Below are positions 4,286-46,569 of a stretch of 64,000 nucleotides of DNA, one piece after another. Made by a program: the position numbers and the translations under genes. Under the pieces are notes generated by a model, which saw only the letters and a program-made list of their open reading frames with translations, was not told where the DNA came from and did not search any database. The first letter of the stretch is position 1. Every line of letters begins with the position of its first letter. Origin of the DNA: Psammoneis japonica (taxonomy: Eukaryota). Where the stretch lies: contig QPGO01000069.1 of the NCBI GenBank assembly GCA_008632985.1, positions 1 to 64,000 on the forward strand, in the 5' to 3' direction.

Positions 4286-4519
4286 GGTCGCACAGATAGA
4301 TGGTAGATGGTCGCACTTTTGACTTTTGAGAGCATTTTTGAGTGTGTGCGAAATGGTGACTGCGGGTGTGCGATGTGCGATGAGCGATGAGGCGCATAAA
4401 TGTCGGTCGACGCATAGACTCACGATGGAGAGTGCAACCGCAACGCTACGACAACCCACACATCAGCACGAAGTTGTTTGGCAGTGTGCGATTGGCCTTT
4501 GTCGCAACGACAAACTCAA

Positions 4520-6119
4520 ATGATCATGTGGCAGGCTTTGTGAGCTCTCTCTCTCTCTCTGTTGCCATGGCCAGACTGTGAGGTGCCTGTCTTGTCACCT
4601 GCCGCAGTGTGCAGTGCAATTGCCAGTGCTGGTGCGCTCTTAAAAAAAATGCTGTGGCAATTTGGTGGCCACCCAGCAAGTTTTGCAGACTCACATCACA
4701 GCCAGGTGGGATGAAGGCAGTCATCACAAAGAAGTCAGCAAAAGAAGAGTGAGTGAGTCAGGTGCAACACGAAGCACTTGCCGCCGCCGCTGCTGCGCCT
4801 CCCTTTGTCTCAGCTCAACAAGAAATGTTCTCTGTGCTGCCGAGTTTTCTTTCACACAGCTGGCTGCTGTGTGCACTTGCGCTCAATCAACTTTTGACAA
4901 AATCTGTTTGGTTGTCAAGACACTGTTCATTGGACTCAGCTCACATCCATTTTTTGTGCAGAGCAAGCGCCCCCACTTGCTTGACCCCACATTGCCACGC
5001 CCACTGGCTCAAGAAGGGCAGGAGGAGGGCCAAGGCACCAGCATCTTCCACATCATCCAAAATGACAGCTGCACCTGGCTTCCAGAACAGAAAATGGAGA
5101 GCTGCCCACAGCTGCAGCTGGCTCTCAATGGCTGCCACAGCTCACACCCAGAGCAGCCACACCAGTGTGATGTGGGGTGGAGCACACAATGCATGTTCTC
5201 AAGCAGCTTGGAAAAAGCACACCATGGGCATCAAAGAATGTGGCTGGCAGCCTCGCTGGTGGAGATTCAAGGAAGGTCACAAAAAACAGAGCAAGAGCTC
5301 TTTGATGGGAGCAAAGCCACTCCAAGTGCTGCTGGTGATGATGCTTTCAGGCCAGCTTGTCTTGCCTCTTGTTGATTCATCTCAGGAAACAGCCCAGCAT
5401 CTCATCTGACACATCACTCTTGTGGCTTTTGATCTCAAAGAACCATTGAGCTGCCATGGGAGTTTTGCTCATCAGCAACTGCTGTTCCACAAAGGCTGCA
5501 CAGCCCAGGAGGGTCACTGTGTCTGATGCTGCCATGGCCAAACAATTTTGCTTCAAGAACAGCAGCCAAGGAACCACAAAAACAGATGGCAACATTGACA
5601 ATGTGCAGAAGAACAAACATGTTGTCCATGCAACCACTGCTGCCACAAAGAGCAGCTAGAATGGCACCATGCACTTCAAAGAAAAAGCTGTGCAATGCTG
5701 CTTTCTGCAATTTGGCAGCACATGAAAAAGGCAACAGGAGATAAACAAGAGGGTGACAACAAGTGAAGTGCGCGGGGGCAGCATCAAGAAAGATGGGCCA
5801 GCAAAGCAAGAGCACTTCAATGCAACAAAAAAGGCATGCATGGTGATGAAGAAAGAGTGTCATTGTTGCCAACATTCATGACTCTCAGGAGAAAAGCCAG
5901 TGTGCTGTGTCTCATCACAGAACACTCCCAACTGGGAGGTCTGCAAGTGGTGCGGATCACAGAAGGTCGAAGCCGCTGCAACGAAGAAGAAGTGCGGGGT
6001 CACTGCCTTTTTTCACAAATGTCCTCCATCCAGCAAAATGTCTGAACCAACCACATGACAAGGACTTGGCATCATTCCCATGGTCATCATCATCAAAAGT
6101 GAAAGGCTGGTTTGAGGGA
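4520..6119. mobile_element. Degenerate unassigned repeat/TE relic, interrupted by the copia insertion and continuing at ~13553-13780
   Basis: Almost no TpA, few CpG, no recognisable protein. The same composition resumes after the AGGGA TSD. Confidence 0.55.
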
Positions 6120-6396
6120 TGATAGAAAATGAAGGCAAATGGCAAGAATTCAAACAACAACTCCTTGCTGCTGTCTAAACAGCAGATGAGTCTCCGCTCA
6201 GAGACCGTCACAGGAGCCGAAAGACGTGCAAGTCGGTACAATCGGGCTGCTGTTGTCATTCTTGTGAGCCTTGTGGCTCGAAAGCAAACTACATCGCCGC
6301 GTGAACGCGCGGAACTAAAGCACACAAAACTGTGCGCGGTAAACTAAACAGCGCGCGATGCTTCGCGCGCATCCAAATCCTGTTCAAATCCTGTCA
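6120..6396 (-). repeat. 3' LTR of copia element 1 (277 bp, TpA-mutated copy)
   Basis: Direct repeat of 13277-13552 with 10 substitutions and 1 indel. Preceded on the minus strand by the PPT ACTGGGGAG. Confidence 0.97.
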
Positions 6397-9300
6397 CTCC
6401 CCAGTTTGCTTGAGGAGCCACAGAAACAGATTCGACTTCGGATGGAATGAAGTTCCAGAACATGAGGGGTCGGAGAAGGTCCCAGATTTGGGAGTGACCC
6501 CAATGCTTGCTGAGAATGTCAGCAGGGTTGCGGGAGCCTTCGATGAAGTGGAACTCAAGGCAACCAGAGGCAATTGCCTCACGCACACGGTGGAACGACA
6601 GTGCGGTGTGTCGCTTGTGCAACTTGGAGTGTGGGATGGTGGCACTGTCTACAACCGACTTGTTGTCACCGAACATGTAACTGACATTGCGGATCGGGAC
6701 GCCAAGGCAGCGCAGGGTGATGCGCAGGTCGACAATCTGCTCAACACAATTCCTTGCGGCAACAAATTCAGATCCGCAGGTTGCAGTCTCCACAGTGGCT
6801 TGTTTCTTGGAGAACCAATCAGCCGGGAATTTGTTGAGGAAGTGGAGCATTCCCATGACAGAGCGCCCGGTGAGCATGCAATGGTGCAAGTTTGCATCGA
6901 CGCAGTGGGTGGCAGTGACGAACTTGCCAAGGGGCGGTGGAGCGTCCTTCGGGATCATCTCTTCTGCTTCACCGTACACGGAATGCATCCATTCGTAGGC
7001 CGGAGCAGGGAGATCCGAATGGTCGGGCTCTTCCGTGCGAACGCGGAGAGCACCGTGTCGCATCTTGGAGAGGTGCCCACAGACGCGTTTGGCACGATCC
7101 AAGTGGCCTTGACGGGGCGCAGCTCGGAAGCTAGAGAGTGACATGACGGCCGTGGCAATGTCAATTCGACCAAGGGACACTGCCCATTGGAGTGAACCAA
7201 CAAGAGACTGGAACTTGTGAATGCCATCGGGTCCCAGCAGTTCGGAAGTGTCCAGTTCGGGGTGGTCACCCTTCTCTAGAGGTGACAGGGCGTTGGTGGC
7301 AGGTTTCTCCCCAAACAGTCGGGCGCAGCTGTCGACCATGCGCTCGATGTACTTGCGCGGAGACAGGCACAAGGTTCCATCGGGGTCCCGGGAAAAGTCG
7401 CAACCCAGATGGAACTCAATGGGTCCCGCACCCTTGAGCTTGAACTTGCACTTTTCCGTGAGAGTGTCGACGAAAGATTGAGGGTCCTTCATGGCAATGG
7501 CGAGGTCATCCACATAAACGGCAATGTGTTCACAGTGGTCGCCGTTCCTGCGCATCCAAATGTCGGGTTCGGCGCGGCAGGGGAAGAAGCCTTCAGCTCG
7601 CAGGCAGTCGGCGAAGCGCTCGTGCCAGCGGAGACCGGAGCTGCGGAGTCCACACAGTGCCTTGTGGATGACAAGGATGTGTCCTTCGAGTTTGCCAAAT
7701 TCGGGTCCAGCTACAATGTAAAGCTTCTCCTTGGTGGTGGCTTCAAGGCAGGCATTGCCAATGTCGGTGGCCCATGTCTCCAGCTCGTTGAGTTCGCCAG
7801 GTGCACTCGGATCTTCTTGTGTCCCGCAGGAGGAGTGGAAGACTTGAAGGGCCCGCAGTCATGGAAGACTTCGCATTCGTCGAGTTGGTCCATCTCGAGA
7901 TTAGTTGCGTCTCCCCACTTGCGGTTGCCATTGCGTTCGTCTAGTGACATGGCGTGTTTGCAGTTCCGGGGAACTTCGCATCCGCACTTGCAGCGAGGTG
8001 CAGTGCGGAAGGAGCGAAGCTTGGCTTGGTTGGCCATGCGAAATAGCTTCTTTTGGCGCCTCGCGATGGTGCGGAACCGCTTCCATCCATCCGTGTCGAG
8101 GAGTCCGTTCTCTCGTGCATAGATGGCACAGGTGACGGGGTCGTCCTTGGCGATGATGGCAAGAGGCTCGGACGTGATCTCCCCACTTTCCCATTCAAGC
8201 ATGATGTTGTAGCTTGAGCCTTTCCAGGTTGGGTCGTGAGGCTTCAGAGGGCCTTCGTGTGACACGATGCGTCGAAATTTCCAAACAGTGGTGTCTTCGT
8301 CTTCTTGCTCAATGTGATTCATGATGTCATTGTAGGCAAGGACTTCCTCGTATTCGTCATTGTTGACAGAGCAGACGAACTTAGTGAGCTCGGGATTGCC
8401 GTTCACTTTCCATTCGTGGTCTTCGACGGCCTTGACGATGCGAGCTCTGTGGCGTTGTCCGTCCTCTTGTGGCTGCATGAGGAAGGTACGTCCAATGATG
8501 TCTTGCGGATCGAAAACTGGCATCTTGGGTGTCCTGATCTCCCCATCAGGAGAATCGACGGGGTTGTCGTCATGGCGAGATTTGATGATGGGTTCAGGTG
8601 GCTCCCCATCAGGAGGATCAAGATGCAGGTTTCGAACGGCAGGATCGGGGGTGGCGGAGCGAACGTTGGACCGGCAGAGGATCTTCTGAGTCTCGTCAGA
8701 TAGAATCTTGAAGGTCATCTGGTGGCCGACGTGCTCAGCAATGCCAACGAAGCGTCCACGCAACTCACGAGATTCGGACGGCCAATCGGAGTCATCGAGG
8801 TGGAAGTACACTGGTTCCCACCAGTGAAAGCGAAGCAATGGGCTGATGTCCGGGGTGGATCCAGTGAGAGTCTCGAGGGGCGTGCGCCAGTGGAGACGTG
8901 GGGACGCTGCATGGTTGAGTGTGAAGCACACGTGCATGAGCGCCAGCAGCCATGTGTGGGCGGGCGAACCAAAACGGTCCATGACAGTGTTCGCCATGCG
9001 CTTCACAGTCTGGTGTCGACGCTCGGCAAAGTTTTGGTGTTGCTGGTGAGGCTCACTTTGCCAGCTGGAGATGAAGAGGGCGCGTAGGATCCCGAGCACT
9101 TTGTTGCTGATCTCAACTTGAGCACGGTCGCTAATGAGTTTGGATGGGGCACCACGTTCACGGATCTGATCCTCGAGTGTGTTGACAAACTCTTTGTCCG
9201 TCTCAGTGCCGCAGACGTCAGTGACGGTAGACTCGGTGCCAACAAACAGTTGGGCGCTGGTGCAACCAGAGTCGACGGCCGGGGTGTCGGCACAAACGGT

Positions 9301-12300
9301 GTCAGTGGCGATGGGCTCGTTGCGACGGTGCACATTAAGGGCGGGGTTGGGTGATTTGAAGGCCTTGCGAAGGTGTGCACCGGCGGGCATGCGGGCGTGC
9401 TGCGTGGTGCAGTCAAAAGTACGACGGACTGCATCGGCAGGCAGGAAGCCAAAGTGAGGCCGAAGGGACTCGAAGGGGGGGTCCTTGGGCTGTACAGTGC
9501 GCTCCGGAGGTGGAACGTCATCGCCCTTGGGGTCAATCGCATGCAGATGACACTCGCAGAACACGTCGTCGTTCGGAATGAGGTGATCATCGAGGGCGGA
9601 CGCGTGATCGGCAGACAAGGAAGCGGACAAGATGGTCTCGTTGACAACGACACGGTGACGGCAGTTGCCGCATTCGTCAAACAGGTTGGCAGTGGGATCG
9701 TCCTGCAGGTCAGAGATCGCGTCGTACCACTGGTCATCGTCAGTGACAGAGTGATCGAGGACGGAAGGGTCCCATGTGTCATCACCGGTGAGGATGACGT
9801 GGGGCAGGGTGTCCCATTCGGCGTCAGTGCAAGGTCGCATGGCAACACAAGGCAGGCCAGCCTTGATGTCAATGGGGATGACATAGCCATCAGGAGTGGC
9901 AATGCGTTGCAAGCCGTTGGGCACCTTGACAGAGCGATCGTTGACATCCTGTTTGCACCATTCGAGCTGGCCGCAGGAATGGATGGTCTTGCCCTTTCCT
10001 GTGCATGCGCACTGATGGAGGATGGCGATGACGGGACCACGCTGGGTCTCAATGACGGCACCAGCGGTGACAATGGGGATGTCCACCAATTGATGATCGT
10101 CAATGCCCTGAACGTCGACTTGGCGAGAGGTGCGTGCGATGACGCGGACGTCGTCGCCAGCAATGCCGCCGTTGGCCCCACGATCGACTAGAGCGCCAGT
10201 GCATGTGGAGCGATGAGCAGAGGCAGAGTGAATGACATTGTGGTTGTCAACGCGGCGGCAAGTGCGGCCGTTAAGTTCTGTGTCAGCTGCAGAAGCTGGC
10301 AACACAAGGCAGGCCAGCCTTGATGTCAATGGGGATGACACAGCCATCAGGAGTGGCAATGCGTTGCAAGCCGTTGGGCACCTTGACAGAGCGATCGTTG
10401 ACATCCTGTTTGCACCATTCGAGCTGGCCGCAGGAATGGATGGTCTTGCCCTTTCCCGTGCATGCGCACTGATGGAGGATGGCGATGACGGGACCACGCT
10501 GGGTCTCAATGACGGCACCAGCGGTGACAATGGGGATGTCCACCAATTGATGATCGTCAATGCCCTGAACGTCGACTTGGCGAGAGGTGCGTGCGATGAC
10601 GCGGACGTCGTCGCCAGCAATGCCGCCGTTGGCCCCACGATCGACTAGAGTGCCAGTGCATGTGGAGCGATGAGCAGAGGCAGAGCAAATGACATTGTGG
10701 TTGTCAACGCGGCGGCAAGTGCGGCCGTCAAGTTCTGTGTCAGCTGCAGAAGCTGGCGGGGTAGAGGAAGCGGCGGATGGCCCCGGTCGACTGGCATTGG
10801 TGGCTTGGTTAGGAGACAACAGACGTTGCAGATCACCGGGTGGCAGTGGCTTGCGCTTGGTGAGGTGCGCCAGGATGGGATTGTCCGAAATGGCGTCCAC
10901 ATGTGCAGCGGAGTCACCACAGTCAGCAGGAGTCGTGTTGGACAAGTTGACATCACCGTCACTCCCAAGGTGTTGGTCGTGAAGGTTGGCCGTAACAGAC
11001 TCATGGCAGTTGCTGGCTCGCGGGTTGCGGGGAGGCGGACGAGAGTGCTCAAGGATGATCGCCTTGGAGGAATCGGGCAACGAATCCCAGAGCCGTTGGT
11101 GGTCGGGAGGGAGACGTCTCCATTGGACACCGGTGAGGCTGGGACCACGGGTGCAGGCAGCATTGGCTTGAAGGACGTCAACGTCGCTGTCAATGTCGTA
11201 GAACACATCGTCGGACGGTTCCTCGGAGCAGACGTCGTGTGCGCATGTGGCGTGTCGGGGAGCTCGAGGTGTTGTCTTGGGTTGAAACGTGCTGTCGTGC
11301 TGAGCTGCCGCGGAGAGGAGCAAGCCACAGCATTGATCGCATGTGAGGCTCTTGCCACTCTGCGTACGATGCTGATCAGCTTGGTTCTTGACAGCACGGA
11401 GTTCCTCGACAGGGTGCACGGCATTCTCGAGCATGACGCGCTTCTGTCCTTCAGAGAAGTGGTCGCTGGCGGGGATGAGTGCCTCGCACTTGCACAACTG
11501 ATCTTGCCAATGAAGGATGAACCCGTGGGTCGGACCTTTCCAAGTGCCATCACCAAGACGTGTGGTGGTGAGGTGCGTGAGCAGGGTGGAGGACTCGACA
11601 GATGCACGGGTGGAGGCAAGCGCGCATTCAGACAAGGAGCGGCAGACGGTCTGTGCGTCAGAGGACCCCACATTTTCGCGAATGAGAGCCTTGCCCTTGT
11701 CGGTGAGAAGGATGCGTTCGAAGACGGCGAACATGTGCTTTTGCTGTTCAGCAAAGAGCAGTTTGTCTTCGGGGCTGGTCGGTTTGTACGACGAGTCTAG
11801 AATGCACTCGACGTCTTGGGCACGGGCTTGTGCCACAAGTGAGGTGTGCCAAGTGTGCCGCTGCTTGTCGGATTTGAGAGCCGTGAAAGCGGTGGGATCA
11901 CGCTTGATGCCTCGCTTGAAGTCTCGCACCGGGTCGCGTGCCTTGGTCGGGTTGGTGACATGTGGAGGTGCAAGGGGTGAGCTGCCGATGGACAGAGAGG
12001 ACATGCAGTCCGGGCTGAGGCGGTGGGCAAGGAACTCGTCATGCGTGAACAAAGAGGAGTCATTGGCAACGTCAAGACCTTTGTGTGCTTTGACAATGCA
12101 CAGGCCAACTGGTGCTGCTGACATGTTCTTATAACCATGGGGCAAAGGGATCACATTGGCGCGCCGTTGTCGCACTCAAGCGAGTCGATTTGGGACGGTG
12201 TGAACGTGAACAGTTCCTGATGCGAGTCCGTGCCGTCTTGGGCCAAAGCCAAACGAAGAGGACTCCCAGCACCTTGGGCAAGCACGGTTCCAACAACGTG

Positions 12301-12339
12301 CTCGAAACCATCGGTTTGTTGCTGACGAGTGAGAACCAT
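6397..12339 (-). pseudogene. gag-pol polyprotein of copia element 1 (frameshifted, internally duplicated and deleted)
   Basis: Gag: FKRGIKRDP, LENAVHP. Protease: LVDRGANGG. Integrase: IATDTV..., LISDRAQVE, HQNFAERR. RT: WATDIGNA, AVYVDD. RNase H: CVDANL, SEFVAAR, GDNKSV, NPADILSK. Confidence 0.95.
9840..10757. repeat. 457-bp tandem duplication of the protease region with TGGC microhomology
   Basis: 9840-10296 is repeated at 10297-10753. TGGC occurs at 9840, 10297 and 10754. 457 is not divisible by 3, so it frameshifts pol. Confidence 0.95.
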
Positions 12340-13265
12340 GGTAGACAAAAGTGGTGTCAGGACAATCAATTCTGGTTGGGAAGCGAAGGCAGACTCGAAA
12401 CTTGGGTGAGAATGGACTTGACTTGAAATGGACTTGACTTGAAATCTTGAACTGTCTTAAAATCAGAAGTCGCCGGGCTTTGTCATCCCGTTCGTTGTCA
12501 AGTGCTAAACTTCCCATCCGGACCGCAGAGTTGTGCCGGCACGTCCGAACCCGCAGCCAGCGGCGCTTTGGGTTGCTTGCGAGCGGAGCAGCGGGTTGTA
12601 AACCCCTGCAGGCAAGCTGAACAGAGGTGGACAAGACCCCCGAACCGTTCTTATTTTGTGTCGGTTGGATTTCCCGATCAGGCTGGCCAGTTGACGCAGG
12701 CGTCAGGCGCTGTGGACGAACGAACAAACGCGGGAAAGCACCCTCGCCCCAATGCAGGCTGCAATCACGGCTGCTTGCTCTCACAGTCGTCCTCGTGGAC
12801 CCAGTAGAACTGTAGAGCACCAGTAGTCCGGGGTAGATCAGGTACAATGGACTCGGTGTGCTTGTAGAGTGGTGGCAAAACCGCAGTCCGAAGAGTGGGT
12901 ACAGGTTCTTGGCCGTGAAGATATGTATATATATATGTCTTCAGCGACGAAGATCCTTGAATATGTAGGGTTCTTGACCGTTAACCGATGAATAGGTATA
13001 TCAAGGGATGAGGATCAAGGATAGACTTGGATATGACCGTTGAATGTATGTCTTCAGCGATCAAAGGTAGTATAATCAATCCAGATATCCAGCGGTAAGG
13101 AGACTTGACGGTGACGTTAACTTCCTGCCGATGCCCTGGTATTGAATGCGCGTAGACTTGCCGATGTATGTAGAATATATACGGAGGTCCACGTAGAATT
13201 GAAATAGCGTCGTTGGTAAATCAACGACGACGATGGCGGTTGCTCAATGGGTTGACAATGAGCAA

Positions 13266-13276
13266 GACTGTTAATC
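13266..13276 (-). other. Putative primer-binding site complementary to a tRNA-Asn(GUU) anticodon arm
   Basis: Plus-strand GACTGTTAATC abuts the 5' LTR and resembles the tRNA-Asn anticodon stem-loop (positions ~30-40). Confidence 0.55.
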
Positions 13277-13552
13277 TGATAGAAAATGAAGGCAAATGGC
13301 AAGAATTCAAACAATAACTCCTTACTGCTGTCTAAATAGCAGATGAGTCTCCGCTCAGAGACCGTTACAGGAGCCGAAAGACGTGTAAGTCGGTATAATC
13401 GGGCTACTGTTATTATTCTTGTGAGTCTTGTGGCTCGAAAGCAAACTACATCGCGCGTGAACGCGCGGAACTAAAGCACACAAAACTGTGCGCGGTAAAC
13501 TAAACAGCGCGCGATGCTTCGCGCGCATCCAAATCCTGTTCAAATCCTGTCA
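13277..13552 (-). repeat. 5' LTR of copia element 1 (276 bp, TpA-retaining copy)
   Basis: TGATAG...CTGTCA, direct repeat of 6120-6396. Confidence 0.97.
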
Positions 13553-14157
13553 AGGGACCTGTGGTTTTGCCAAAAATGCCCCAAATCACGTGATTTGTGA
13601 TTTTGTTCTTCCTGGAGCTGGGGGGCATGCCCCTCTCTGGTGGTGCCAAAGAACAGCAGAAATGAGGACTTGAATTCACTGACAGATCAGAACCCCCCAA
13701 CATTCTTGTTTCTGTAATTCAGCAAGAAGTGATGAGGGCAGAAAGCCTGCATTTTCAGTTGTGGACTGTTGCTTGGAATGACCCGTACATGTATGGCGTT
13801 TATGGTGTGTTCCACGTGTCATCAAATAACACGACCCGGCTATTATTGCCAATGGGGCTTCGGTGCTCTGTAGGGAGCTACGAAAAACATACTGAGAGCG
13901 AAATTCGTTCCGTGAGAAGCCCCTCGAGACCCAGCCACAAGATTTTGTGCGTCTACGCCTGCCTACCTGCTGGCTGTTGTTGGCTGTGTTGAGTGTGCTG
14001 TGTTGAGTTCCATCCTCGTCCATCGGCGTCGCTGTTGTTGCTGCTGCTGCTTTGGCGCTGTTATTGCTTTATTTGCCATTGCTCTTTCTCTTGCGGCAAG
14101 AACGTTAGACTCGTTTCAATCTCTTAGTTGACGCAAGATAAACAACACTTTTTAAAA

Positions 14158-22572: not shown

Positions 22573-25500
22573 CGAGCGAAATCCGATGTATCGAGCATTG
22601 GATTGGGATACCAATGCTGCGCTGCTATGTTGAAGTGGCGCGCGGGACTGTGACGTGGTGTCGGTGGGAAAGATGATGACCATGACCATCGATCGGTCTC
22701 ACTTGTTGCAATCGTTGCAGTGGTGACAGGCCTGGAAGCATCTTGTTGGTTGCATTCACATTGTCGTGCTAAAACTGTGAGTGGCTGAGCCTGTCTGGCA
22801 ACTGGATTTGCTCACTTTGTCAGAGCCAAGTCTCAACTCACGCTTGGTTTGACAAAAAGTGACGAGCAACTGAAAAGAAACGATTGCACCATCATGGCAT
22901 GGTCATGACGACGAATGCCGGACGATCGATGGGCATGCAATGATTGTCATCACCCAGCATCAGTGCATGCATGAGCAGTGAGGAGACATGGCCAGTCTCT
23001 CCATGCTTCCAATGGCTGTGTGTTGTCGTCAGCACAAAAAGAGAAATGTGATCGTCTTGTGTGTTTTCTCACATGACTCTGTTTTCCCACTGGCATGGGT
23101 GCCACTGTGGTGGCTGCTCTTCCTGATCTGATTGAGACAGCTCTTGATTGGATTGGATTTGTTGACCAGGCTCACAACGAGCTTCGCTTGTGGTGGATTT
23201 CGTGTCGTTTGACGATTTAGAAGACCTTGAGGAAGACGATGTCGACTCTCTTGCTTCGTCACATGCAAGGAGGACGGTTGCTGAAGGGCGCATTCATTTT
23301 GGTTTGGCCCGCAGTCATTGACTCAAAGCTTTCATCCATTGGGTTCAAGATTTTGGCCGCACAAGCGAGAACCCTGCTCTTGATGGGCTCGACCAAGCGA
23401 CACCCCGCACTGAACTCCAGACGGCACTTGGTCGCGCTGAGATTCACTCTCAGACTGAGGACACGGCAGACTCTCTTGGTGAGGAGGCATCACCTGGGAT
23501 GTCAGAGAGTGAGAAAGGTTGGGCAAAGTGGTGCACTGGCTTGACAAACATGTCAGGCATTGTGCTGGGAGAGTGTCCGGCATGCCACCAGTGCATTGCA
23601 TCCATCTGAACGATGCACCAGAGCCCAATGGTCACAACACCTTTGTCCAGAAGTGCATTGCATGTGCACCTCTCAATGGCCCAGCTTTTGAAGTGGATGC
23701 TCACACCATTCATTTGTTGGCAGAGTCCCTTGCCATGGGGACACCAAGTGAACAGTGGTTGAAAGACTGCAAAAGCGAGCAAAATGGACGCGTGGACTGT
23801 CAGGCACCATGTGACCACTGCCAGGGAGAAGGAAATTCCTCCCATTGCATTTCTGAAGCCAAGCGCATGGAGAACACTCTCCATTGCAAGAGTGAACATG
23901 CTGTGCTGTTTGAGTTGTTTGTTGACAAACTCCAAGAAATGTTCAACATTTGTGAGGAGAACGATGAACCCAAAACGGAGGCTCAGAAACTGTGCATCCT
24001 TTTCAAGAAGACTCAGCACCAACAGCTGCAGGCTGCAGTTGAGTCCTTGAAGGCACAAAACAAGTTTGGAGGAGGCATCACATTCACCATGGTGGCTGAC
24101 CACATTGCGCATCGCCGTGCGATTGCTGCAGTTGCCTCAGGAGGAGGAAGCAAGAGTGGCACCAACTGCAATGCCGATGGATTCATTGACACTGGATGCC
24201 ACAAGAATTGGCGCCAGTTGAGCAAAGAGGACAAGCAGAAGGTCATCGACAAGCGCACGCATCTGGGAATTTCTGAGCAACCTAAGAATCTGGCAAACGC
24301 CGTGCTGCACATCTGTCAAGTTGCTCAAGAAGAAAAATTGGAAGCTGTCGTTGCAGCTTAAAGAAGCAAACCGCAAAATCTTCACTTTGAACACAGACAC
24401 CCCCACGCTGATTTGGGCAATGATTCAAAGGATGGTGGACAAGACAAGGACAATGCCGGAGACGCATTCGGTGGATGCAGTGAAAGGTGCAGCAGATGCC
24501 AGAAATGACTGCCAAGCTGGACTCTGCTCTGTGGCACATCATCAACTTTGCACTGTGGTTGCTGCACTGGGGCAGAGGACACCCACATTGATCAGTCAGA
24601 AGAGACCCAAGTTGCTGCAGTTGAAAGATTTGCAAGGCAGTTGCCTCCACTTGATGCATTTCTGCAGCTCGGTCCGACACCCGAATCCCTCATGTCTGCG
24701 ACATGAGTCAGGAGGTACAGCATGGATGTGTTGAAATGGATTTGCATGCTGACACCACTGTCTTTGGTCATGGTTTCACCCTCTTGGGTTGTTCTGGAAG
24801 AGAGTGTGATGTGTTGCCTTTCAATGAGGGATGCAATTCCATCAAGAGTGTCCCGACAGTTTCAGCAGCAACAGCGTGGACGTCACCAACATTGGGAGCA
24901 ACGTTTGTTCTGGTCTTCCACAAGGGCTTGTGGATGTCAGACTCCATGGAGCACTCATTGGTCAACCCCAACCAATTCTTGTGGCATTTCAGTGTGAAGG
25001 TCCAGGACAACCCCTGTTCCAACTTGCCATTGCACATTCTCATGGAGGACAATTCATTCATGATGTCACTCGAGGTTGTGGGGACCAATGTCGTTGCGGC
25101 AACCCGCACTCCTGCAGATCAGGAGTTGCACAAGTGCCCCAGGATCCTGATGACCTCCCAGCAACCCTGGGATCCACAGAACATCAAGTTCAATTCTGTT
25201 AGACCTCAACGCTCTGCAGAGGAGGAAATGGAATTGGTTTGGTGAGTTGCAACGGTCGACACTGTCCAGACAAATTTGACACACAAATTTAGTGCCGACC
25301 CCACTTGCAGCAACCCTCAGTCCGGGGACTGCAAAGACAGGCAATTCATCTGTGGTGTCAATCAGATACAATCAAGGTTAACAGCAGTGGTTAAAGTGGA
25401 GTCACTGCCAGAAGCCAAGGTCACTGCAACCAAAACAATTGGCAACGGACCTGAAGATTTGCCAACTCGAAAGACATTCATGTCCAAGGAGTGACACAGT

Positions 25501-28500
25501 GATGTGACAGCTGCGGACTTGAGTGAATGATGGAGTGTTGGACTCAAGCAAGCAACGAGTGCACTCAAGAAAACTGCTCAGAAGCTCTCAAGGTCGGCGC
25601 TGATGCCCATGGGTCAACGCCATCGAGCGGACTGCATGTTTGCGAAACCAAGACTGCGAGGTGAGTGGGCAACCGACACTGTTGACAGCAAGGTGACTTT
25701 GTTGGAAGGCAACCGAAATGCCCAGATCCTTGCAAACAAGCAATGCTTTGCTGCAATGAGCCCCATGGACAAGAAGAGCAAAGCAGGAGAAGCTCTAAAG
25801 ACGTTCTGCCAAGAATTTGGCATTCCGGAGAAGCTCGTCATGGATGGTTCCAAGGAACAGACGAAACTGGGCACTGAGTTCATGAAGATGGTGTGCAAGG
25901 ACGGCATTGACTGCCATGTTGTCAAACCCGATCAACACAACCAGAACCCTGCTGAAGGCATTGCACATGAAGTTCAGTGCAAGTGGTTCCGTGTCATGGT
26001 CAAGAAGTGTGCACCGTGGCAACTGTGGGGTTGCGGATTTGCATGGACCTGCAAAATCATGTCTCACACGTTCCTCAGATCACATCATTTGGATGCTGGA
26101 GCACCACTTGAAAACATTCTTGGAGAGACCGTGGACATCTTGGAGCACCTGGACTTTGGATTTTATGATTGGGTCTGGCACAGGGAGAACGTGGGTCTTG
26201 GCGATGAGAAACTTGGCACAGGTGGCTTGGCGCATCTCGTGGAATGGGGAGCCTCATGTCACATCATGCTTTGACAGAGACCGGCAGTGTCATGTTGAGG
26301 ACATCTGTTCAAGGAGTCACCAACTTAGAAGCCATCACTCAAGAGAACAAGGTTAAGTTCAACAGTTTTGACGAGGAGATCATGCGCCATCTGAGGGAGC
26401 ATGATTTCCCCGATGATGAAGAACGAAAGATCAGCCCCGAAGATTGGAAGGACCACCTTGGACATGACGAAGAATTCCTTGATGAGTGCAATTGCATCAT
26501 GTCATTGGAAGAAGCAATTAATGAGGATGATGACACGAAAGACAAGAAAGCCTCACCAGAAGAGCAACTGATTGGGTGATTGGGGTCACCTCAATGTGGA
26601 AGCAGCACTCCCAAGGGATGACAATGGCCCTGAATTTGCTCATGTTGCAAAGAGGTTAAGAGATGCCAGTGGCATTCTGAGAGGAGCAGCCAACGACAAT
26701 CCCATCCTTGACACTGGGATGCATGAGGTGGAGCACCCCGATGGGCACAGTGCTGCGCTCTCTGCCAACTCCATTGCCATCAACATGATCGCAAAGATCA
26801 ATGAAGATGGGAGCCGACATGTTCTGTTTGATGAGTCAGTTGATTGCCATGCAAATGGGGACATTTCGGAATCCACGTTCTTTGAGACTGATCAGGGTGT
26901 TCAGAAGAGGCACAAGACTGCCAAGGGATGGGAACTCCTGTTCCAATGGAAGGACAGGAGTGTGACATGGACAGACTTGAAGGACGCCAAGGAGAGCTTC
27001 CCTGTCCAAGTCACCAAGTTTTCCATCCAACACAAGATCTCAGAGGAGGCAGCATTTGCTTGGTGGGTCCCTCATGTCATGAGGACCCACAAGCATTCCA
27101 TTGCAAAGGTCAAGTCGAAACATTGGCCAAGGACACACAAGTTTGGTGTCCGAATTCCCAAGAGCATCAAGGAGGTGATCCAGCTAGATTGCGTGAATGA
27201 CAACACCCTTTGGTGGGATGCCATTTGCATGGAGATGAAGAATGCATGCATTGCATTTGAGAAATGCAAGGGGGGGCTAGAAGACATGGCGCCTGGCTGT
27301 CAGGAAGTAAAATGCCATGTGATTTTCTACATCAAGATGGGAGAAAATTTTTGTGGCAAAGCTCGCATGGTGGCTGGAGGCCACACTGCTGAAGCCCCTG
27401 CAACTCTCACCTGCTCCTCTGTCATCTCGCAGGATTTGGCAAGAATTGCACTTGCACTTGCAGTGCTCAGCCAACAACTTGAAAGTTTTTGCATGTGACA
27501 TCCAGAACGCCCACCTTGCTGCCCCTTGCAGGGAGAAGATTTGGACCCGTGCAGGCTCAGAATTTGGTGAAGATGAAGGATGCATCATGATTGCAGTCAG
27601 AGCTCTCTGTAAATTAAAGAGCTCGGGAGTGGCATTTGGGGCATTTCTGGTGGAGACGCTGTGTGATCTGGGGCACAAACTGAGCAAGGCCGATCCGGAC
27701 GTGTGGATGCAACCTGCAGTGAAACCCGATGGATTCGAGCACTGCGAGTGCGTTTTGGTTTATGTTGACAACGTGTTGTCAATCAGTCACAAGCCAATGA
27801 AGATGATGGATGGCATCAGGTCCAAGTTCAAGCTCAAGGGTGACAAGGCAGCCAAGCCTGATTCTCACCTCAGAGCTGCGCTTTCCAAGAGGACTCTGGC
27901 CGATGGAACCACCTGTTGGTCGATGTCTGCGGAGAAGTGCTGAAAGGCTGCTGTTCAGAATGTTGAGGACAAACTCAACAAAAAAGGAAGACATCCACCC
28001 AATGAGGTGACCACTCCACTGGGCTGTGGACACAAGCCCAAGCTGGACATGACTGGTGAATTAGATGCCAAAGGACTGCACTGCTGCCAAGAGTTGATTG
28101 GGCGTGTTGGTTTGGGCGGTGGAACTTGGCAGAGTCGACATCCATTTGGAAGTGTCATCAACATCTGCCCACCTTGCATTGCCTTGCATTGGTCATCTGG
28201 AACAGGTGCTGCATGTCTTTGCGCATCTTAAACAGGTTCCAAAGTGCCAAGTGGCTTTTACCCGGCTCATCCCAAGATTGTTGAATCTTGATTCGTGAAG
28301 TGTGGTTGGCACGACTCTTGCCAAGACGCCAAGAAAGCCATCCCAACAAATGCACCGCCCACTCAAGGCAATGCAATGTCAACACATTGTTTTGTGGATT
28401 CTCATCATGCTGGCAATGTTGCCGATCACTGCAGTCACACAGGCATCTTGACGTTTGTCAATTGGGCACCCGTCATGTGGTGCTCGAAACGTCAGAATGC

Positions 28501-29225
28501 TGTGGAGGCGAGTGCATTTGGAGCCAAGATCGTCAACTCAAGAATGCTGTCAAGCTCATTGAAGGACTACGATGCAAGCTTTGAATGTTTGGGGTGCCAA
28601 TTGAGGGATCAATGAATGTCTTTTGCAACAACAAAGCCGCCCACAAGAGTTGCTCTGTTCCTGAGTCTGCACTCAAGAAGAAGCATCATTCCATTGCGCA
28701 CCACCACAACCGGGAAGCTGTCACTGCAGGGACTGTCAGGATTGCAAAGGAGGGAACAGAAACAAATCTGAGTGATCTGTTCACAAAGACCATGTCGTCG
28801 GTCAGGCGAAATTTTCTGTTGGACAAGTTCGCGCATTGAGTGGAGGAGCAGAGGTGGAGGAGCGGTGGTGATTTTCTTCCCTGGCGAGGGTTTGCACCAT
28901 GCTCAAGGATCATGTTTATTTAATTTAGTGTTGGAGATTGCAATTTGGCACTGGGTTGAATTGCATCTAGTGAGCTTGCTGGGAACATTTCGAGGGAACG
29001 AGTGAAATCCGATGTGTCGAGGATCGGACGCTGCGCTGCACAAGTTGAAGTGGCGGGACTGTGAGGTGGTGTCGGTGGGAAGATGACCATGACCATCGAT
29101 CGGTCTCACTTGTTGCAATCGTTGTAGTGGTAACAGGCCTAGACGCATCTTGTTGGTTGCATGTATTCACATTATCGTACTAAGACTGTGAGTGGCTGAG
29201 CCCACATGGCAGCTAGATTTACTCG
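22573..29225 (+). mobile_element. Ty1/copia (CoDi-like) LTR retrotransposon 2, heavily hypermutated; LTRs 22573-22814 and 28999-29225
   Basis: Diverged direct-repeat LTRs. AGTG duplicated at 22569-22572 and 29226-29229. Empty site present in copy A at ~19380-19405. PR: EMDLHADT. IN: EFGIPEKLVMDGSKEQ, NQNPAEG. RT: KARMVAGGH, CDIQNAHL, VYVDN. RH: FVDSHHAG, WCSKRQN, NLSDLFTK. PBS-like TGTCAGAGCC at 22818. PPT GAGGGAA at ~28992-28998. Confidence 0.93.
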
Positions 29226-42400: not shown

Positions 42401-43250
42401 CAAGCTGTTTTGCTTCAATCAAATGCACCCTTCTCAACTCTGGGTCACTTGAGCCACGACTCTTCCATCATCTTCTTGTCAACTGGCAATTCATTTCAGA
42501 TGCTTTCAGCTTGCTTCCATCCCCACAGATTCATGCAGCAATGCACAATCCTTGGAGCTTCTTTTGTCAGCTTTGAAACATTTTTGAATCCACACACAAA
42601 TTTCACACTCAACTGGAGGGAGCTTGTGGGAAAGCCCACAGATGACCCAGTTGCTTGTGCGGCATGCCAAGTGTGTCTGATGTCTGCCACAGATTGCAAG
42701 CAACAACAGGTGGTGTGGTGTGCATTGAGTTCTGCGAGATGTGCCAGGAGTGCAAGTTTCTCTGCAACTCACCCTTTCTTTCATTTTTGATCTGTCAGCA
42801 TCCTGCCAAGCCTTCAGTTTCTTGACAATGTGAGTCAGAACATTTTGTCTTTTATTTCATCTTCTGTGCAGCAGCAGCCCAGCTGCTGGAAGGATCTTCA
42901 TTTCAGCCATTGGCCGCCATTGACTCTGGAGCTGTGACACACCAGGCTCCCACTCTCCATCTGAGCCTGGACCTCTTTGTGCACTGCTTCAATGAGCTCC
43001 TCATGATTTTGTTGTTTTGTTGCTTGTTGCATGCATGCAGCACTGAGGTCTGCTGAAGCTCCAATTTTGGCAGAGCCATGCCTTGCACTGGCCACCCAAT
43101 TGGTCAACTTTTTCACCCTGATCTTGTTGTCACTTCTGACATCCATGGCTTGCTGGGTGGATCAGGTTTGCCCTCCTGGGGTGTGTGCTCAAAAGATGGG
43201 AAACACAATGGGCTGGTCAAACCCTGTGCACCCAGCTGCCATTTCACATG

Positions 43251-43292
43251 CACAACAACAACAACAACACACAACAACAACAACAACAACAC
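43251..43292. repeat. (CAA)n microsatellite
   Basis: Imperfect CAA run. Confidence 0.9.
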
Positions 43293-45145: not shown

Positions 45146-45299
45146 CACAGGAGGGCTGTCACAAACCCATGGCTCCTGCAAGGAATGAGATGCCAAGGCA
45201 CACCCTCATGACAGGGAGCTGACACAGGAGGGCTGTCACAAACCCTTGGCTCCTGCAAGGAATGAGATGCCAAGGCACACTCCCATGACAGGGAGCTGA
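45146..45299. repeat. 2 x 77-bp tandem repeat
   Basis: CACAGGAGGGCTGTCACAAACCC...GACAGGGAGCTGA starts at 45146 and 45223. Confidence 0.93.
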
Positions 45300-46569
45300 G
45301 CATTAGTTTGCCACCCACCAGCTCACCACACAAAGCTGTTGGAGCCAAAAACTGCAGGTCTTGGGAGAAAAATTGAGAGCAAAGAAAGCTGGGCCAATTG
45401 TGTTTGTGAAGAATCTACACAGAGCTTGTTGCTGGGATTCTAAGATCAAAACCCACCAACAATCAACAGCTGATGAACCCTCCATTCTTTCATTTTTCAG
45501 TGGAAAAGAACCCTCCATTCCAGCCTGAGCTGCATCTCAAGTGCTGTTTGTGCAATGCAGTGGTGGGTGGCCAGGCTGTTTTGCCACCGCATTTGCCATG
45601 TTGCCAGCCTGCACCACAATGGAGGCAGTCTTGATGTCCTCTTGCATGGGCCCTTGATGACCTTTTGTCAGGTGGAGTGTCTGTGAGACAACTTCCTGCT
45701 GCACATGCATTTTTAGAAGGAAAAGGGGATTTTTGCAGCCAGTGCATTTGTGATGACATGGAGAGCTGGGTTTTGCACATGATGAAGCTGGTCATTTTGT
45801 GCAAGTGGTTTGAATGGAGCATGGCACCCAGTCTGATCCTGCAGTGGTGGGGTTGACTGTTGTGTGGGAATGTCATGATGGATGTCCAAACACATGGGGC
45901 ATTGGCACATTGAGTTTTGTCACCTGGAAAATGTCAACCTTGACCTGATCAAGCACTTGCACAAAGGCAGACCAGCACTGTCTTCTCGCTGCAATGCCTG
46001 TGCTGATCTGAGGCAATGGGATGCACATGCCTCACAGACAAAGGCAGATTGCTTTCATGGGCTGCAGCACTCATTCTCATGCAATGAAGTTGCACGCTTC
46101 TAAATGTGGCTTTTGCCACTCATTGGCAAGTCACACCACCATCATGTGCAGGGTTGCTTTGGCCTCTTTACAAAGCAATCCATTGCATGAGATGTCACAA
46201 AAGTTGTGAAATGATGACATTGCTCAAGGCAAGGCTTGAAACACTCACATTTTTCCTCTTTCTCATTGTCCAGCAGGACTTTTTCCAGTGACTTGGACAG
46301 GTGTGATGCAACAACTGTGTGTCAGCAACAGTGACACCCAGTGTCAGTCATTCCCTCACAACAGAGAGCCATGGACAGTGAAACATCTCTGCAGTTTTGA
46401 ACTTGTGTGAGTTTGCAGCTGCACTTGGTGAGCCACTGGATCAGCTTTTGGCTTTTGGGCATCCTGAGATGGGATGAGAGTTGATGATGGATTTGTTGTG
46501 CATGCTGAGAAAGGAAAAACTCCCTTTGCCAAGATCAAGCCACTCTGAGCTTGTCACAAATTATGAACC

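What the first reader, a model, noticed from the sequence alone, without database searches (positions are those of the whole stretch)
6120..13552. LTR pair records the spectrum: 9 of 10 substitutions are TA vs CA/TG, all one way
Seen, 5' LTR to 3' LTR: AATAAC>AACAAC, CTTACT>CTTGCT, AATAGC>AACAGC, GTTACA>GTCACA, TGTAAG>TGCAAG, TATAAT>TACAAT, GCTACT>GCTGCT, and TTATTA>TTGTCA (two sites). There is also one T>C outside TA and one 1-bp indel. No CpG differs although the LTR is CpG-rich. Established: LTRs are identical at insertion. Inference: the changes arose on the chromosome after integration, on both strands, in only one LTR. LTR-divergence dating would be inflated in this genome.
Basis: seen in the sequence. 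Interest (0 to 1): 0.9.

Follow-up and report, generated by a model that had tools for sequence, protein, structure and literature searches.

The report
TpA-erasing hypermutation of diatom retrotransposons
A young jumping gene in a diatom genome has had its TA steps rewritten to CA or TG in one of its two end repeats and most of its body, the mark of a targeted DNA-editing process so far reported only in an unrelated alga.

Summary
The repeats 6120-6396 and 13277-13552 are the LTRs of a Ty1/copia element on the minus strand, with a 5-bp target duplication (AGGGA). They differ at 10 sites, all transitions. Nine are TA (right LTR) against CA or TG (left LTR), all in one direction. All 21 CpGs are intact in both LTRs.

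- Conserved tyrosine codons in the element's polyprotein now read Cys or His.
- An unmutated metagenomic relative has TA at 32 places where the element has CA/TG, and never the reverse.
- Older elements in the window are almost free of TA.
- Their LTR pairs differ by CA-versus-TG double mismatches.

Classical RIP (CA to TA) is therefore rejected.

The window is a mosaic. About 30 kb lies in sharp-edged, transposon-derived blocks holding 136 TA. About 30 kb of normal gene DNA holds 1197.

The same spectrum was described in 2026 for integrated viruses of the chlorarachniophyte Bigelowiella natans. The host here is a diatom and the targets are LTR retrotransposons. I did not obtain an outgroup copy of the LTR itself, so the polarity at the nine LTR sites is inferred. 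The enzyme, possibly a DNA adenine deaminase, is unknown.

The parts
6115..6119 (.). Target-site duplication AGGGA, left copy
   Evidence: identical to 13553-13557.
6120..6396 (-). 3' LTR in the element's orientation (left in the window). It is the derived, CA/TG-bearing copy: 7 TA, 44 CA+TG, 21 CG. Nine TA sites are changed, at 6158, 6166/7, 6180, 6209, 6229, 6239, 6248/9, 6254/5 and 6257. Seven TA are kept, at 6123, 6176, 6237, 6290, 6316, 6340 and 6345.
6347..7858 (-). Open frame for reverse transcriptase and RNase H (RVT_2, E 2e-16). Conserved Tyr is replaced by Cys or His.
7714..10644 (-). Open frame for protease and integrase, recognised through homologous copia polyproteins (no Pfam hit). 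It joins the RT frame at about 7796, where about 44 residues present in relatives are missing. Other copies carry about 129 more bases there.
   Evidence: (loose ends at 7796).
9840..10757 (.). Internal tandem duplication of 457 bp (9840-10300 and 10297-10757). It has 6 differences: 2 TA/CA, 2 CG/TG and 1 CA<>TG double.
10286..12940 (-). Gag-side open frames (10286-12175 and 12179-12940), separated by one in-frame TGA at 12176-12178.
6397..12700 (.). TA-depleted tract inside the element: rho TA 0.16, rho CA 1.51, rho TG 1.32, CpG normal at 0.91.
12805..13276 (-). Spared 5' untranslated end of the element, dense in TA (rho TA 1.11), with a (TA)n run at 12922-12935.
   Evidence: In one search, contigs of other copies match 12653-13271 with 5 differences in 621 and 12875-13126 with none.
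13277..13552 (-). 5' LTR in the element's orientation (right in the window). It is the TA-bearing copy, inferred to be ancestral at the nine sites: 16 TA, 35 CA+TG, 21 CG.
13553..13557 (.). Target-site duplication AGGGA, right copy
4450..6119 (.). Older block almost free of TA and CG, into which the element inserted (left part). Rho TA 0.03, rho CG 0.22. Single-copy by contig depth.
   Evidence: In one search, one contig covers 4408-5952 with 1 substitution and 2 indels at depth 65.
13558..13783 (.). Right part of the same older TA- and CG-free block. Over 13553-13783, which includes the 5-bp TSD copy, rho TA is 0.06 and rho CG 0.08.
22573..29224 (+). Second, older copia element with LTRs 22573-22813 and 28999-29224 (81% alike). 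Its interior is TA-free (rho 0.08) and CpG is half gone (0.43). Of 27 conserved Tyr columns, 2 keep Tyr, 10 read Cys and 7 read His.
39727..48128 (.). Block free of TA and CG and of unidentified origin (rho TA 0.05, rho CG 0.13). Its edges are sharp to within tens of bases.
50000..58065 (.). Block free of TA and CG containing an old LTR-like pair, 50413-50729 and 56313-56653 (72% alike). That pair has 13 CA<>TG double differences.

Best explanation
The region is a defective Ty1/copia LTR retrotransposon of a diatom. It inserted into an older transposon relic.

After insertion, a chromosomal process changed TpA to CpA or TpG on either strand. This equals A to G at 5'-TpA, or equivalently T to C on the opposite strand. 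The process is confined to inserted DNA. It rewrote most TpA from the left LTR through about 12700. It spared the last ~750 bases (12805-13552), which include the other LTR.

The two LTRs were identical at insertion. They therefore record nine such events, all in the left LTR, plus one ordinary transition and one indel.

The same process has run to completion in older insertions in the window, which are almost free of TpA. CpG decay comes later and separately.

What is shown:
- the spectrum;
- its polarity in the element's body and in older elements;
- its action on both strands;
- its sharp confinement to inserted DNA;
- its independence from CpG loss.

What is inferred:
- That the nine LTR changes lie in the left LTR. 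This rests on continuity with the mutated body.
- That the chemistry is deamination of adenine in DNA at TpA, by an ADAT2/TadA-like or other deaminase recruited to silenced insertions. This is the hypothesis the B. natans preprint proposes for its own alga.
- That the process acts as a genome defence. It cripples proteins (Tyr to Cys/His) without ever creating an in-frame stop codon.
For: LTR pair: 9 of 10 substitutions are TA against CA/TG, all in one direction. Six are CA and three are TG on the plus strand. All 21 CpG are untouched.

Control duplication of host DNA: 12 TA-type among 122 mismatches, in both directions, with 60 transversions. Fisher p is 1e-7.

Polarity:
- At 23 alignment columns where at least half of the homologous copia proteins have Tyr, the element has Tyr 6, Cys 7, His 4, Phe 5 and Ile 1. 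Other consensus residues are kept at 61-100%.
- In the leave-one-out test, the element shows 7 of 14 Tyr to Cys/His, against 85 of 1305 pooled over 99 homologues (p 1.5e-5).
- Against the metagenomic relative L001 (intact frame, rho TA 0.65), over 1341 aligned bases, 53 TA in L001 correspond in the element to CA 22, TG 10 and TA 5. The 200 CA/TG in L001 correspond to TA 0 times.
- At TA sites, T>C is 23 and A>G is 11, against C>T 0 and G>A 1.

Age series:
- The 81% LTR pair has 9 single TA-type differences and 1 CA<>TG double.
- The 72% pair has 1 single and 13 doubles.
- Older elements are TA-free, with rho 0.03-0.08.
- Copia2 keeps Tyr at 2 of 27 columns, with Cys 10 and His 7.

Confinement:
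- There are 136 TA in 30,394 bp of blocks against 1197 in 30,804 bp of normal DNA.
- Block edges are sharp within tens of bases.
- No TA-type cluster appears in host DNA next to copia2.

Copy-specific action: among contigs of other copies, the same dinucleotide reads TA, CA or TG. At 6620, 9204, 9557 and 9830 most copies have TA where this one has CA. At 6678, 8488 and 9725 this copy keeps TA.

The sequence is real: a contig of run X1 reproduces the TA-free flank 4408-5952 with 1 substitution and 2 indels.

Precedent: the same spectrum was measured in mutation-accumulation lines of B. natans (Results and Discussion read).
Against: - No outgroup copy of the LTR was obtained. The DNA pattern scans found nothing. 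The protein scans gave one 3-kb relative without an LTR pair or nothing. The table of laid contigs showed 40 of 360 variant places, and none was among the ten LTR sites.
- The spared end is richer in TA than host DNA. Rho is 0.83 in the right LTR and 1.11 in 12805-13276, against 0.53-0.63 in host DNA. The left LTR, at 0.43, is nearer to host values. Taken alone, this would also fit a gain of TA on the right.
- Four TA in the CpG-dense part of the left LTR (6290-6345) are unchanged, although the body beside them is depleted. I cannot explain this.
- Part of the body's TA poverty may have been inherited from an already mutated source copy.
- The ancestor of a CA<>TG double can be CG as well as TA.
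- Runs X1-X4 come from one sample. They may be the data the window was assembled from.
- The host assignment rests on one gene.
- No enzyme, modification or mutation rate was observed.
Confidence: 0.8

Rival explanations
1. Classical RIP-like mutation. The family's original state is CA/TG, and C to T at CpA hit the right LTR and the adjoining 5' end of this copy.
For: All nine differences fit CpA to TpA equally well as single steps. The right LTR and 12805-13276 have more TA than host DNA, with rho 0.83 and 1.11 against 0.53-0.63.
Against: - Old elements are TA-free, not TA-rich.
- Conserved Tyr is lost to Cys/His.
- None of 200 CA/TG sites became TA against L001.
- CA<>TG doubles in older LTR pairs cannot arise by RIP.
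- Contigs of other copies match the TA-rich 12653-13271 with 5 differences in 621 and 12875-13126 with none. The TA-rich state is therefore the family's common state there, not a product of this copy.
- The host is a diatom. RIP is known from fungi (recalled).
Confidence: 0.04
2. The two LTRs are not a true pair at these sites. Either the left LTR received a conversion tract from another, more mutated copy, or the assembly or polishing of this highly repeated family mixed copies. The spectrum would then be real for the family, but the events would not have arisen in this LTR after this insertion.
For: The nine sites cluster in 6158-6257. The family is highly repeated: summed contig depth is 38,000-185,000 against 60-85 in the flanks, although the tool warns that this is not a copy number. 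Short-read contigs stop at the LTR edges (records 3 and 8).
Against: - Both ends carry the same 5-bp duplication and sit in one older TA-free block.
- The changed LTR is continuous with a 6.3-kb TA-poor body.
- Copia2 shows the same one-sided pattern, with 7 of 9 single differences having TA in its right LTR.
Confidence: 0.08
3. Editing before integration. Either ADAR-type A-to-I editing of the element's RNA or deaminase editing of its cDNA was fixed by reverse transcription.
For: ADAR favours a U before the edited A (stated in the preprint's Discussion). A-to-G hypermutated retroelements are known (recalled).
Against: - Both LTRs are copied from single U3, R and U5 templates (established knowledge of LTR reverse transcription). 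Pre-integration edits would therefore appear in both LTRs.
- Both strands are hit in similar numbers: 6 and 3 in the LTR, 22 CA and 10 TG on the sense strand against L001, and 7 Cys and 4 His.
- The single-copy relic flank is TA-free as well.
Confidence: 0.03
4. This is not mutation bias but an artefact or selection. Either modified bases were miscalled in a long-read assembly, or the transposons avoid TA by selection.
For: TA and CG are both self-complementary steps that are often modified, and systematic transition miscalls at modified sites are known for nanopore data (recalled). The window differs from the X1 contigs by single-base indels, which suggests a long-read assembly.
Against: - A contig of run X1 reproduces 1.5 kb of TA-free flank with 1 substitution.
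- Miscalls on both strands would also yield CG and TA calls, yet the blocks lack both.
- The changes destroy conserved residues of the element's own enzymes, which is the opposite of selection for function.
- The relative L001 has normal TA.
Confidence: 0.05

Closest known systems
TpA-specific hypermutation of integrated giant-virus and virophage DNA in Bigelowiella natans (Mettrop et al., bioRxiv 10.64898/2026.01.13.699255; abstract, Results and Discussion read)
   Same: - Changes are almost only A>G/T>C and occur only at TpA.
- Both TpA>TpG and TpA>CpA occur.
- The process is confined to inserted foreign DNA, with a normal spectrum elsewhere.
- The long-term mark is low rho TpA with high rho CpA+TpG.
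- Reverse-transcriptase and DDE Pfam families are enriched among TpA-poor coding sequences.
   Different: - The host here is a diatom (stramenopile), not a chlorarachniophyte (rhizarian).
- The targets seen are LTR retrotransposons and their relics, not viral insertions.
- Depletion is far deeper: rho TA 0.03-0.16 here against 0.45 for their NCLDV region.
- Here the evidence is historical (LTR pairs, protein decay), not measured rates.
- Homology of the machinery is untested.
Repeat-induced point mutation (RIP) of Neurospora and other fungi
   Same: Both are dinucleotide-specific transition hypermutation of mobile DNA on both strands. Both produce compositionally aberrant blocks beside normal genes and inflate the divergence of repeats.
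   Different: - The polarity is opposite: RIP makes TpA from CpA, and this process removes TpA.
- This process raises G+C rather than lowering it.
- It cannot create in-frame stop codons, whereas RIP makes many.
- A now single-copy relic is also affected, so dependence on repeats is not shown.
- The host is not a fungus.
ADAR hyperediting of repeat-derived double-stranded RNA, and A-to-G hypermutated retroviruses
   Same: Both give A to G with a preference for a 5' U/T, and both act on repeats.
   Different: That process acts on RNA, gives changes on one strand of a retro-copy, and would mark both LTRs alike. Here the LTRs differ and both DNA strands are hit.
Methylation-driven CpG decay of silenced transposons
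   Same: Present in the same blocks. Older blocks have lost CpG to TpG/CpA: rho CG is 0.10-0.43.
   Different: It is a separate and slower process. The young element has lost most TpA but keeps CpG at rho 0.91, and no CpG differs between its LTRs.

Membership tests
TpA to CpA/TpG hypermutation of inserted DNA (as defined in B. natans) | Substitutions are almost only A>G and T>C. | tested here: met
   All 10 LTR differences are transitions, and 9 fit this class. At TA sites against L001, T>C is 23 and A>G is 11, against C>T 0 and G>A 1.
TpA to CpA/TpG hypermutation of inserted DNA (as defined in B. natans) | Mutated bases lie in TpA dinucleotides, giving TpG or CpA according to strand. | tested here: met
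   There are 6 TA/CA and 3 TA/TG differences in the LTR pair. Of 53 TA in L001, 32 are CA/TG in the element.
TpA to CpA/TpG hypermutation of inserted DNA (as defined in B. natans) | The process is confined to foreign or inserted DNA, with an ordinary spectrum in the rest of the genome. | tested here: met
   Blocks coincide with copia elements and relics. Edges are sharp. The host duplication has 12 TA-type among 122 mismatches.
TpA to CpA/TpG hypermutation of inserted DNA (as defined in B. natans) | Long-term signature of rho TpA at or below 0.43 with rho CpA+TpG at or above 1.52, in clustered windows. | tested here: met
   Rho TA is 0.03-0.16 in five tracts. Rho CA is 1.36-1.88 and rho TG 1.32-1.96. 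The young element's body is the weakest, at 1.51 and 1.32.
TpA to CpA/TpG hypermutation of inserted DNA (as defined in B. natans) | Measured de novo rate about 1000 times the genomic rate, active in only some lines. | not testable with these tools
   No mutation-accumulation or multi-strain data were available. The four runs come from one sample.
TpA to CpA/TpG hypermutation of inserted DNA (as defined in B. natans) | Same machinery (candidate ADAT2-like deaminase) or shared descent of the system. | not testable with these tools
   No genome is held for this window. The host gene's best named relatives are diatoms at 86-88%, so the lineage differs.
Fungal RIP | C to T at CpA, producing TpA excess and CpA/TpG deficit. 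| tested here: not met
   The polarity and composition are opposite.
Fungal RIP | Acts on duplicated sequence only. | tested here: inconclusive
   The element's family is highly repeated. However, the TA-free flank 4734-5834 has single-copy depth of 68-75. It may have been repeated when it was mutated.
ADAR/RNA-level or cDNA-level editing of retroelements | Edits are fixed before integration, so they are identical in both LTRs and lie on one strand. | tested here: not met
   The LTRs differ at nine sites, and both strands are affected.
Ty1/copia LTR retrotransposon | Direct LTRs with TG...CA ends and a 5-bp target-site duplication. | tested here: met
Ty1/copia LTR retrotransposon | RVT_2-type reverse transcriptase lying downstream of the integrase in one polyprotein. 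| tested here: met
   RVT_2 scores E 2e-16 at 6347-7858 on the minus strand. Full-length copia-like polyproteins align collinearly from 12049 to 6428. No integrase or gag Pfam domain was found in the ORFs scanned. The order rests on collinearity with homologues whose own domains I did not scan.
Ty1/copia LTR retrotransposon | Primer-binding site complementary to a tRNA next to the 5' LTR. | not tested
   The bases next to 13276 were read, but no host tRNA set was available for comparison.

The most novel reading that the evidence does not exclude
Diatoms have a dedicated genome defence that finds newly inserted DNA with near base-pair precision and deaminates adenine at every 5'-TpA on both strands. 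This erases TpA within a time short compared with CpG decay. It wrecks the invader's proteins without making stop codons. The system is shared by descent with the one just reported in the chlorarachniophyte Bigelowiella. If so, it would be an ancient counterpart of fungal RIP across the SAR supergroup, with opposite chemistry.
Probability: 0.3. Interest if true: 0.92.

Novelty: new member of a known kind. Interest (0 to 1): 0.78.

Why it matters
- A TpA-specific, insertion-targeted DNA hypermutation has so far one report, a 2026 preprint on a single chlorarachniophyte. Finding its full signature in a diatom would move it from a curiosity of one alga to a candidate widespread eukaryotic genome defence. 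The diatom signature is much deeper, acts on LTR retrotransposons, and carries an internal clock (LTR pairs of three ages). Diatoms are also a group with genetically tractable models.
- LTR-divergence dating in such genomes is inflated about tenfold for this element. The CA<>TG doubles inflate it further in older pairs.
- TA-free blocks yield long false open reading frames in all six frames, which will mislead gene prediction.
- The sharp edges and the spared LTR-proximal ends give concrete handles for asking how the targeting works.

Tried and rejected
- The whole genome of the window is not held.
- Outgroup LTR copies were sought without success:
  - An exact-pattern scan of viral contigs found 0.
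  - An exact-pattern scan of metagenome contigs found 0.
  - A protein-guided scan of metagenome contigs gave 1 locus, L001, which is 3 kb, 70% identical, and has no LTR pair.
  - A protein-guided scan of viral contigs gave 0 relatives.
- BLAST of the element against the window found no further copy.
- Pfam on 79 open frames of the TA-free blocks gave only one weak RVT_2 hit in copia2 and one weak DUF hit. tblastn with 36 copia polyproteins found nothing in blocks 39727-48128, 50000-58065 or 4450-6119. Their origin stays unidentified.
- I tested whether the mutation spreads into host DNA beside copia2. The nearest TA-type difference lies about 570 bases from the junction, so no spreading is seen.
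- No consistent strand bias was found. Changes on the element's sense strand are TG 6 and CA 3 in the LTR, CA 22 and TG 10 against L001, and Cys 7 and His 4.
- Cluster members and names of the hypermutated-looking homologues P0146 and P0165 could not be looked up because the database was switched off. Their organisms are unknown.
- Earlier findings of this scan held nothing on this genome and nothing relevant.
- Literature searches found no report in diatoms in that library (with passages read). Only the B. natans preprint describes the spectrum.
Full report
**The observation**

The repeats at 6120-6396 (277 nt) and 13277-13552 (276 nt) align with 266 identical columns, 10 mismatches and one 1-bp indel. 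Both begin TG and end CA. Both are flanked by the same five bases, AGGGA, at 6115-6119 and 13553-13557. They are therefore the LTRs of a single insertion.

All ten mismatches are transitions:
- Six are CA on the left against TA on the right.
- Three are TG on the left against TA on the right.
- One is C against T in a CC/TC context.

All nine TA-type differences have TA in the right-hand LTR. Each LTR has 21 CpG and none differs.

The differences are far from chance:
- Only 21-24% of LTR sites could give such a change, so nine or more of ten has probability 6e-6 to 2e-5.
- Nine of nine in one direction has p 0.004.

The coding strand is the minus strand. In window order the CA/TG-bearing LTR comes first.

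**What the element is**

Stop-to-stop frames on the minus strand give a copia-type polyprotein. RVT_2 scores E 2e-16 in 6347-7858. A search of 1.84 billion representative proteins with that frame returned 912 proteins at E 1e-30 or better, the best 68% identical. Full-length relatives align collinearly from 12049 down to 6428.

The copy is defective in four ways:
- It has one in-frame TGA at 12176-12178.
- It has a 457-bp internal tandem duplication, 9840-10300 and 10297-10757.
- It has a frameshift, with about 44 residues missing at about 7796. Other copies carry about 129 more bases there.
- It has many Tyr to Cys/His replacements (described below).

The family is highly repeated in the source organism. 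Summed contig depth over the element is 38,000-185,000, against 60-85 in the flanks. The tool warns that this figure is not a copy number.

**The host**

The FMN-dependent dehydrogenase gene at 32989-34131 has its best named relatives in diatoms: Phaeodactylum 88%, Fragilaria 87% and Fistulifera 86%. Unnamed environmental sequences reach up to 91%. The other genes in the window are ordinary eukaryotic genes with long uninterrupted frames. I take the host to be a diatom. This rests on one gene.

**The surroundings change the picture**

Counting dinucleotides in 250-bp steps shows that the window is a mosaic. Normal DNA has about 9 TA per 250 bases, with rho TA 0.53-0.63. Five tracts have 0-3 TA per 250 bases:

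| Tract | rho TA | rho CG | Note |
|---|---|---|---|
| 4450-6119 | 0.03 | 0.22 | older flank, left part |
| 13553-13783 | 0.06 | 0.08 | older flank, right part |
| 6397-12700 | 0.16 | 0.91 | body of this element |
| 22814-28998 | 0.08 | 0.43 | body of copia2 |
| 39750-48000 | 0.05 | 0.13 | unidentified block |
| 50000-58000 | 0.06 | 0.10 | unidentified block |

CA and TG are raised in all of them, to rho 1.3-1.96. Together the tracts hold 136 TA in 30,394 bp, against 1197 TA in 30,804 bp of normal DNA.

The edges are sharp. TA occurs every 10-20 bases up to 39726, then not once through at least 40100, the limit of the fine map; the 250-bp counts stay at 0-3 up to 48000. Dense TA resumes at 48129. 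A 1.9-kb gene with PAS domains sits untouched between two 8-kb blocks.

The element under study lies inside the older TA- and CG-free flank. Its own TA-poor tract runs from the left LTR to about 12700. From 12805 to 13501, TA is dense, with 55 in 700 bases. The changed LTR is therefore continuous with the depleted body, and the unchanged LTR is continuous with the spared end.

**Polarity**

Four independent lines give TA to CA/TG.

1. Protein columns.
   - At 23 columns where at least half of the homologues have Tyr, the element has Tyr 6, Cys 7, His 4, Phe 5 and Ile 1. Every other consensus residue is kept at 61-100%.
   - In a leave-one-out test on the RT/RNase H part, the element shows 7 of 14 Tyr to Cys/His, against 85 of 1305 pooled over 99 homologues (Fisher p 1.5e-5). 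It ranks third of 100 rows.
   - The two rows above it, P0146 (9 of 11) and P0165 (5 of 8), look like further hypermutated copies from unknown organisms.
2. A metagenomic relative.
   - L001 is 70% identical in protein. It has an open frame and normal TA (rho 0.65).
   - Over 1341 codon-aligned bases, its 53 TA correspond in the element to CA 22, TG 10 and TA 5. Its 200 CA/TG correspond to TA 0 times.
   - Outside TA the exchange is nearly symmetric: T>C 67 against C>T 52, and A>G 32 against G>A 34.
3. Age.
   - A second copia element (22573-29224, plus strand) has LTRs 81% alike and a TA-free body.
   - Of its 27 conserved Tyr columns, 2 keep Tyr, 10 read Cys and 7 read His. It also shows Arg to Cys/Gln/His, as expected from CpG decay.
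   - A RIP-like process would make old elements TA-rich. These are TA-free.
4. The LTR series.
   - The 96% pair has 9 single TA-type differences and no double.
   - The 81% pair has 9 singles (7 with TA in its right LTR) and 1 CA<>TG double.
   - The 72% pair, 50413-50729 and 56313-56653, has 1 single and 13 CA<>TG doubles among 60 mismatched columns.
   - Doubles are expected when an ancestral TA is driven independently to CA in one LTR and TG in the other. In those CpG-poor blocks the ancestor could also be CG.

The control is a host segmental duplication, 19393-22196 against 29231-32023. It has 122 mismatches, of which 60 are transversions and only 12 are TA-type, in both directions. Against 9 of 10, Fisher p is 1e-7.

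**Evidence from other copies**

Contigs of four runs from one sample were laid on 4000-15000. Of the 360 variant places, 40 were shown, and none lay in the LTRs.

Among those shown, the same dinucleotide often reads TA, CA or TG in different copies:
- At 6620, 9204, 9557 and 9830, 64-91% of the depth has TA where this copy has CA.
- At 6678, 8488 and 9725, this copy keeps TA where 32-80% of the depth has CA or TG.
- At 7020/1 and 9312/3, the window has TG where the same contigs have CA.

Copies therefore carry different subsets of changed TA sites. That is what mutation after insertion predicts.

In the spared end, contigs match the window with 5 differences in 621 bases (12653-13271) and none in 254 bases (12875-13126). 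In the body the figure is 1-6% (table 8). The TA-rich state of the spared end is therefore the family's common state, not a product of this copy.

A 1547-base contig at single-copy depth reproduces the TA-free flank 4408-5952 with 1 substitution and 2 single-base insertions. The odd composition is thus not peculiar to the assembly. The runs may, however, be the assembly's own source.

**How it most likely works**

Shown:
- The process changes TpA to CpA or TpG.
- It acts on both DNA strands in similar numbers.
- It acts after integration.
- It is confined to inserted DNA.
- It is faster than CpG decay and independent of it.

Three consequences follow from what is shown:
- Because both LTRs are copied from single U3, R and U5 templates, editing of the RNA or cDNA would mark both alike. 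Such editing is therefore excluded for the nine LTR sites.
- The process can never create an in-frame stop. TAA and TAG need a TA, and TGA can arise only from TAA. This explains the long open frames on all six frames of the blocks.
- It does destroy Tyr codons and other TA-containing codons.

Inferred:
- The chemistry is deamination of adenine to hypoxanthine at 5'-TpA in DNA. This is the hypothesis that the B. natans preprint proposes for its alga, with an ADAT2-like candidate.
- The enzyme is recruited by whatever marks insertions as silent chromatin.
- I put the deaminase chemistry at about even odds. Oxidised thymine at TpA followed by mispairing is a weaker alternative. That alternative comes from my own knowledge and was not tested.

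Unexplained:
- The last ~750 bases (12805-13552) of this element escaped. So did the right LTR of copia2 with about 80 bases before it. The spared end is the 5' end in one element and the 3' end in the other.
- Four TA in the CpG-dense part of the left LTR survive.
- Surviving TA in the blocks are enriched for TTAA, CTAA and CTAG, while ATAT, ATAC and ATAG are almost gone.

**Comparison with what is known**

A full-text search found one description of this spectrum: Mettrop et al., bioRxiv 2026. I read the abstract, Results and Discussion.

In mutation-accumulation lines of Bigelowiella natans, 230 of 231 mutations in two integrated viral regions were A>G/T>C, all at TpA. The rates were about 6e-7. 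TpA-poor coding sequences were enriched for reverse-transcriptase and DDE domains, and 124 TpA-poor clusters were found. The main text does not mention LTRs, retrotransposons or CpG.

Six further searches and two papers read in passages gave no report for diatoms in that library.

The present case meets every sequence-level criterion of that phenomenon. It differs in these respects:
- The host is from a different lineage (a diatom).
- The targets are LTR retrotransposons.
- The depletion is much deeper.
- There is an internal time series from three LTR pairs.

It is the chemical mirror image of fungal RIP and fails RIP's defining polarity.

**Verdict**

- RIP is rejected.
- The finding is a new member of a kind described only this year.

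The main gap is the lack of an outgroup copy of the LTR itself. No genome is held, and four scans were empty or unhelpful. The assignment of the nine changes to the left LTR therefore rests on its continuity with the polarised body, and on the absence of any sign of the opposite process.

Noticed in passing
window 19004-22196 versus 22196-22570 plus 29231-32023: A host segment of about 3.2 kb, including a NudC-like gene with CS domain, is tandemly duplicated at 94-95% identity. The second copia element (22573-29224) sits exactly at the point of the second copy that corresponds to 19389/19393 in the first, so the first copy serves as its empty site.
   Followed up: partly
window 50413-50729 and 56313-56653: An old LTR-like pair, 72% alike, has 26 of its 60 mismatched columns in 13 CA-versus-TG double differences. 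No protein similarity is left between the two repeats.
   Followed up: partly
all TA-poor tracts of the window: Surviving TA depend on context. Relative to normal DNA, TTAA survives at 0.69, CTAA at 0.37 and CTAG at 0.20. ATAT, ATAC and ATAG survive at 0.01-0.03. This hints at a wider recognition motif than TpA alone.
   Followed up: partly
window 34560-34860: About 300 bases of low-complexity sequence are made of CTAG, GTAC and TAGAG words, with 34 TA per 250 bases, the highest in the window. The stretch lies between the FMN dehydrogenase gene and a diacylglycerol acyltransferase gene. Its function is unknown.
   Followed up: no
window 12805-13552 and 28917-29224: In both copia elements the hypermutated tract stops short of the right-hand LTR in window order. 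That is the 5' end of the minus-strand element and the 3' end of the plus-strand element, so sparing does not follow the element's own polarity.
   Followed up: partly
window 12922-12935: A (TA)n run in the element's 5' untranslated region varies in length among copies. Contigs carry one more TA unit at 12925 (table 4).
   Followed up: no
window 4367-4733: A short stretch at the edge of the old TA-free flank has summed contig depth 954, against about 70 around it. The tool reports skipped repeats at 4535-4573, so this appears to be a small dispersed repeat.
   Followed up: no
proteins P0146 and P0165; locus L001: Two of 99 public homologues of the RT/RNase H part show the same Tyr to Cys/His decay, 9 of 11 and 5 of 8. 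The metagenomic relative L001 is unmutated. The organisms behind them could not be looked up.
   Followed up: partly
window 45146-45299: A tandem pair of 77-base units, 96% alike, lies inside the TA- and CG-free block.
   Followed up: no
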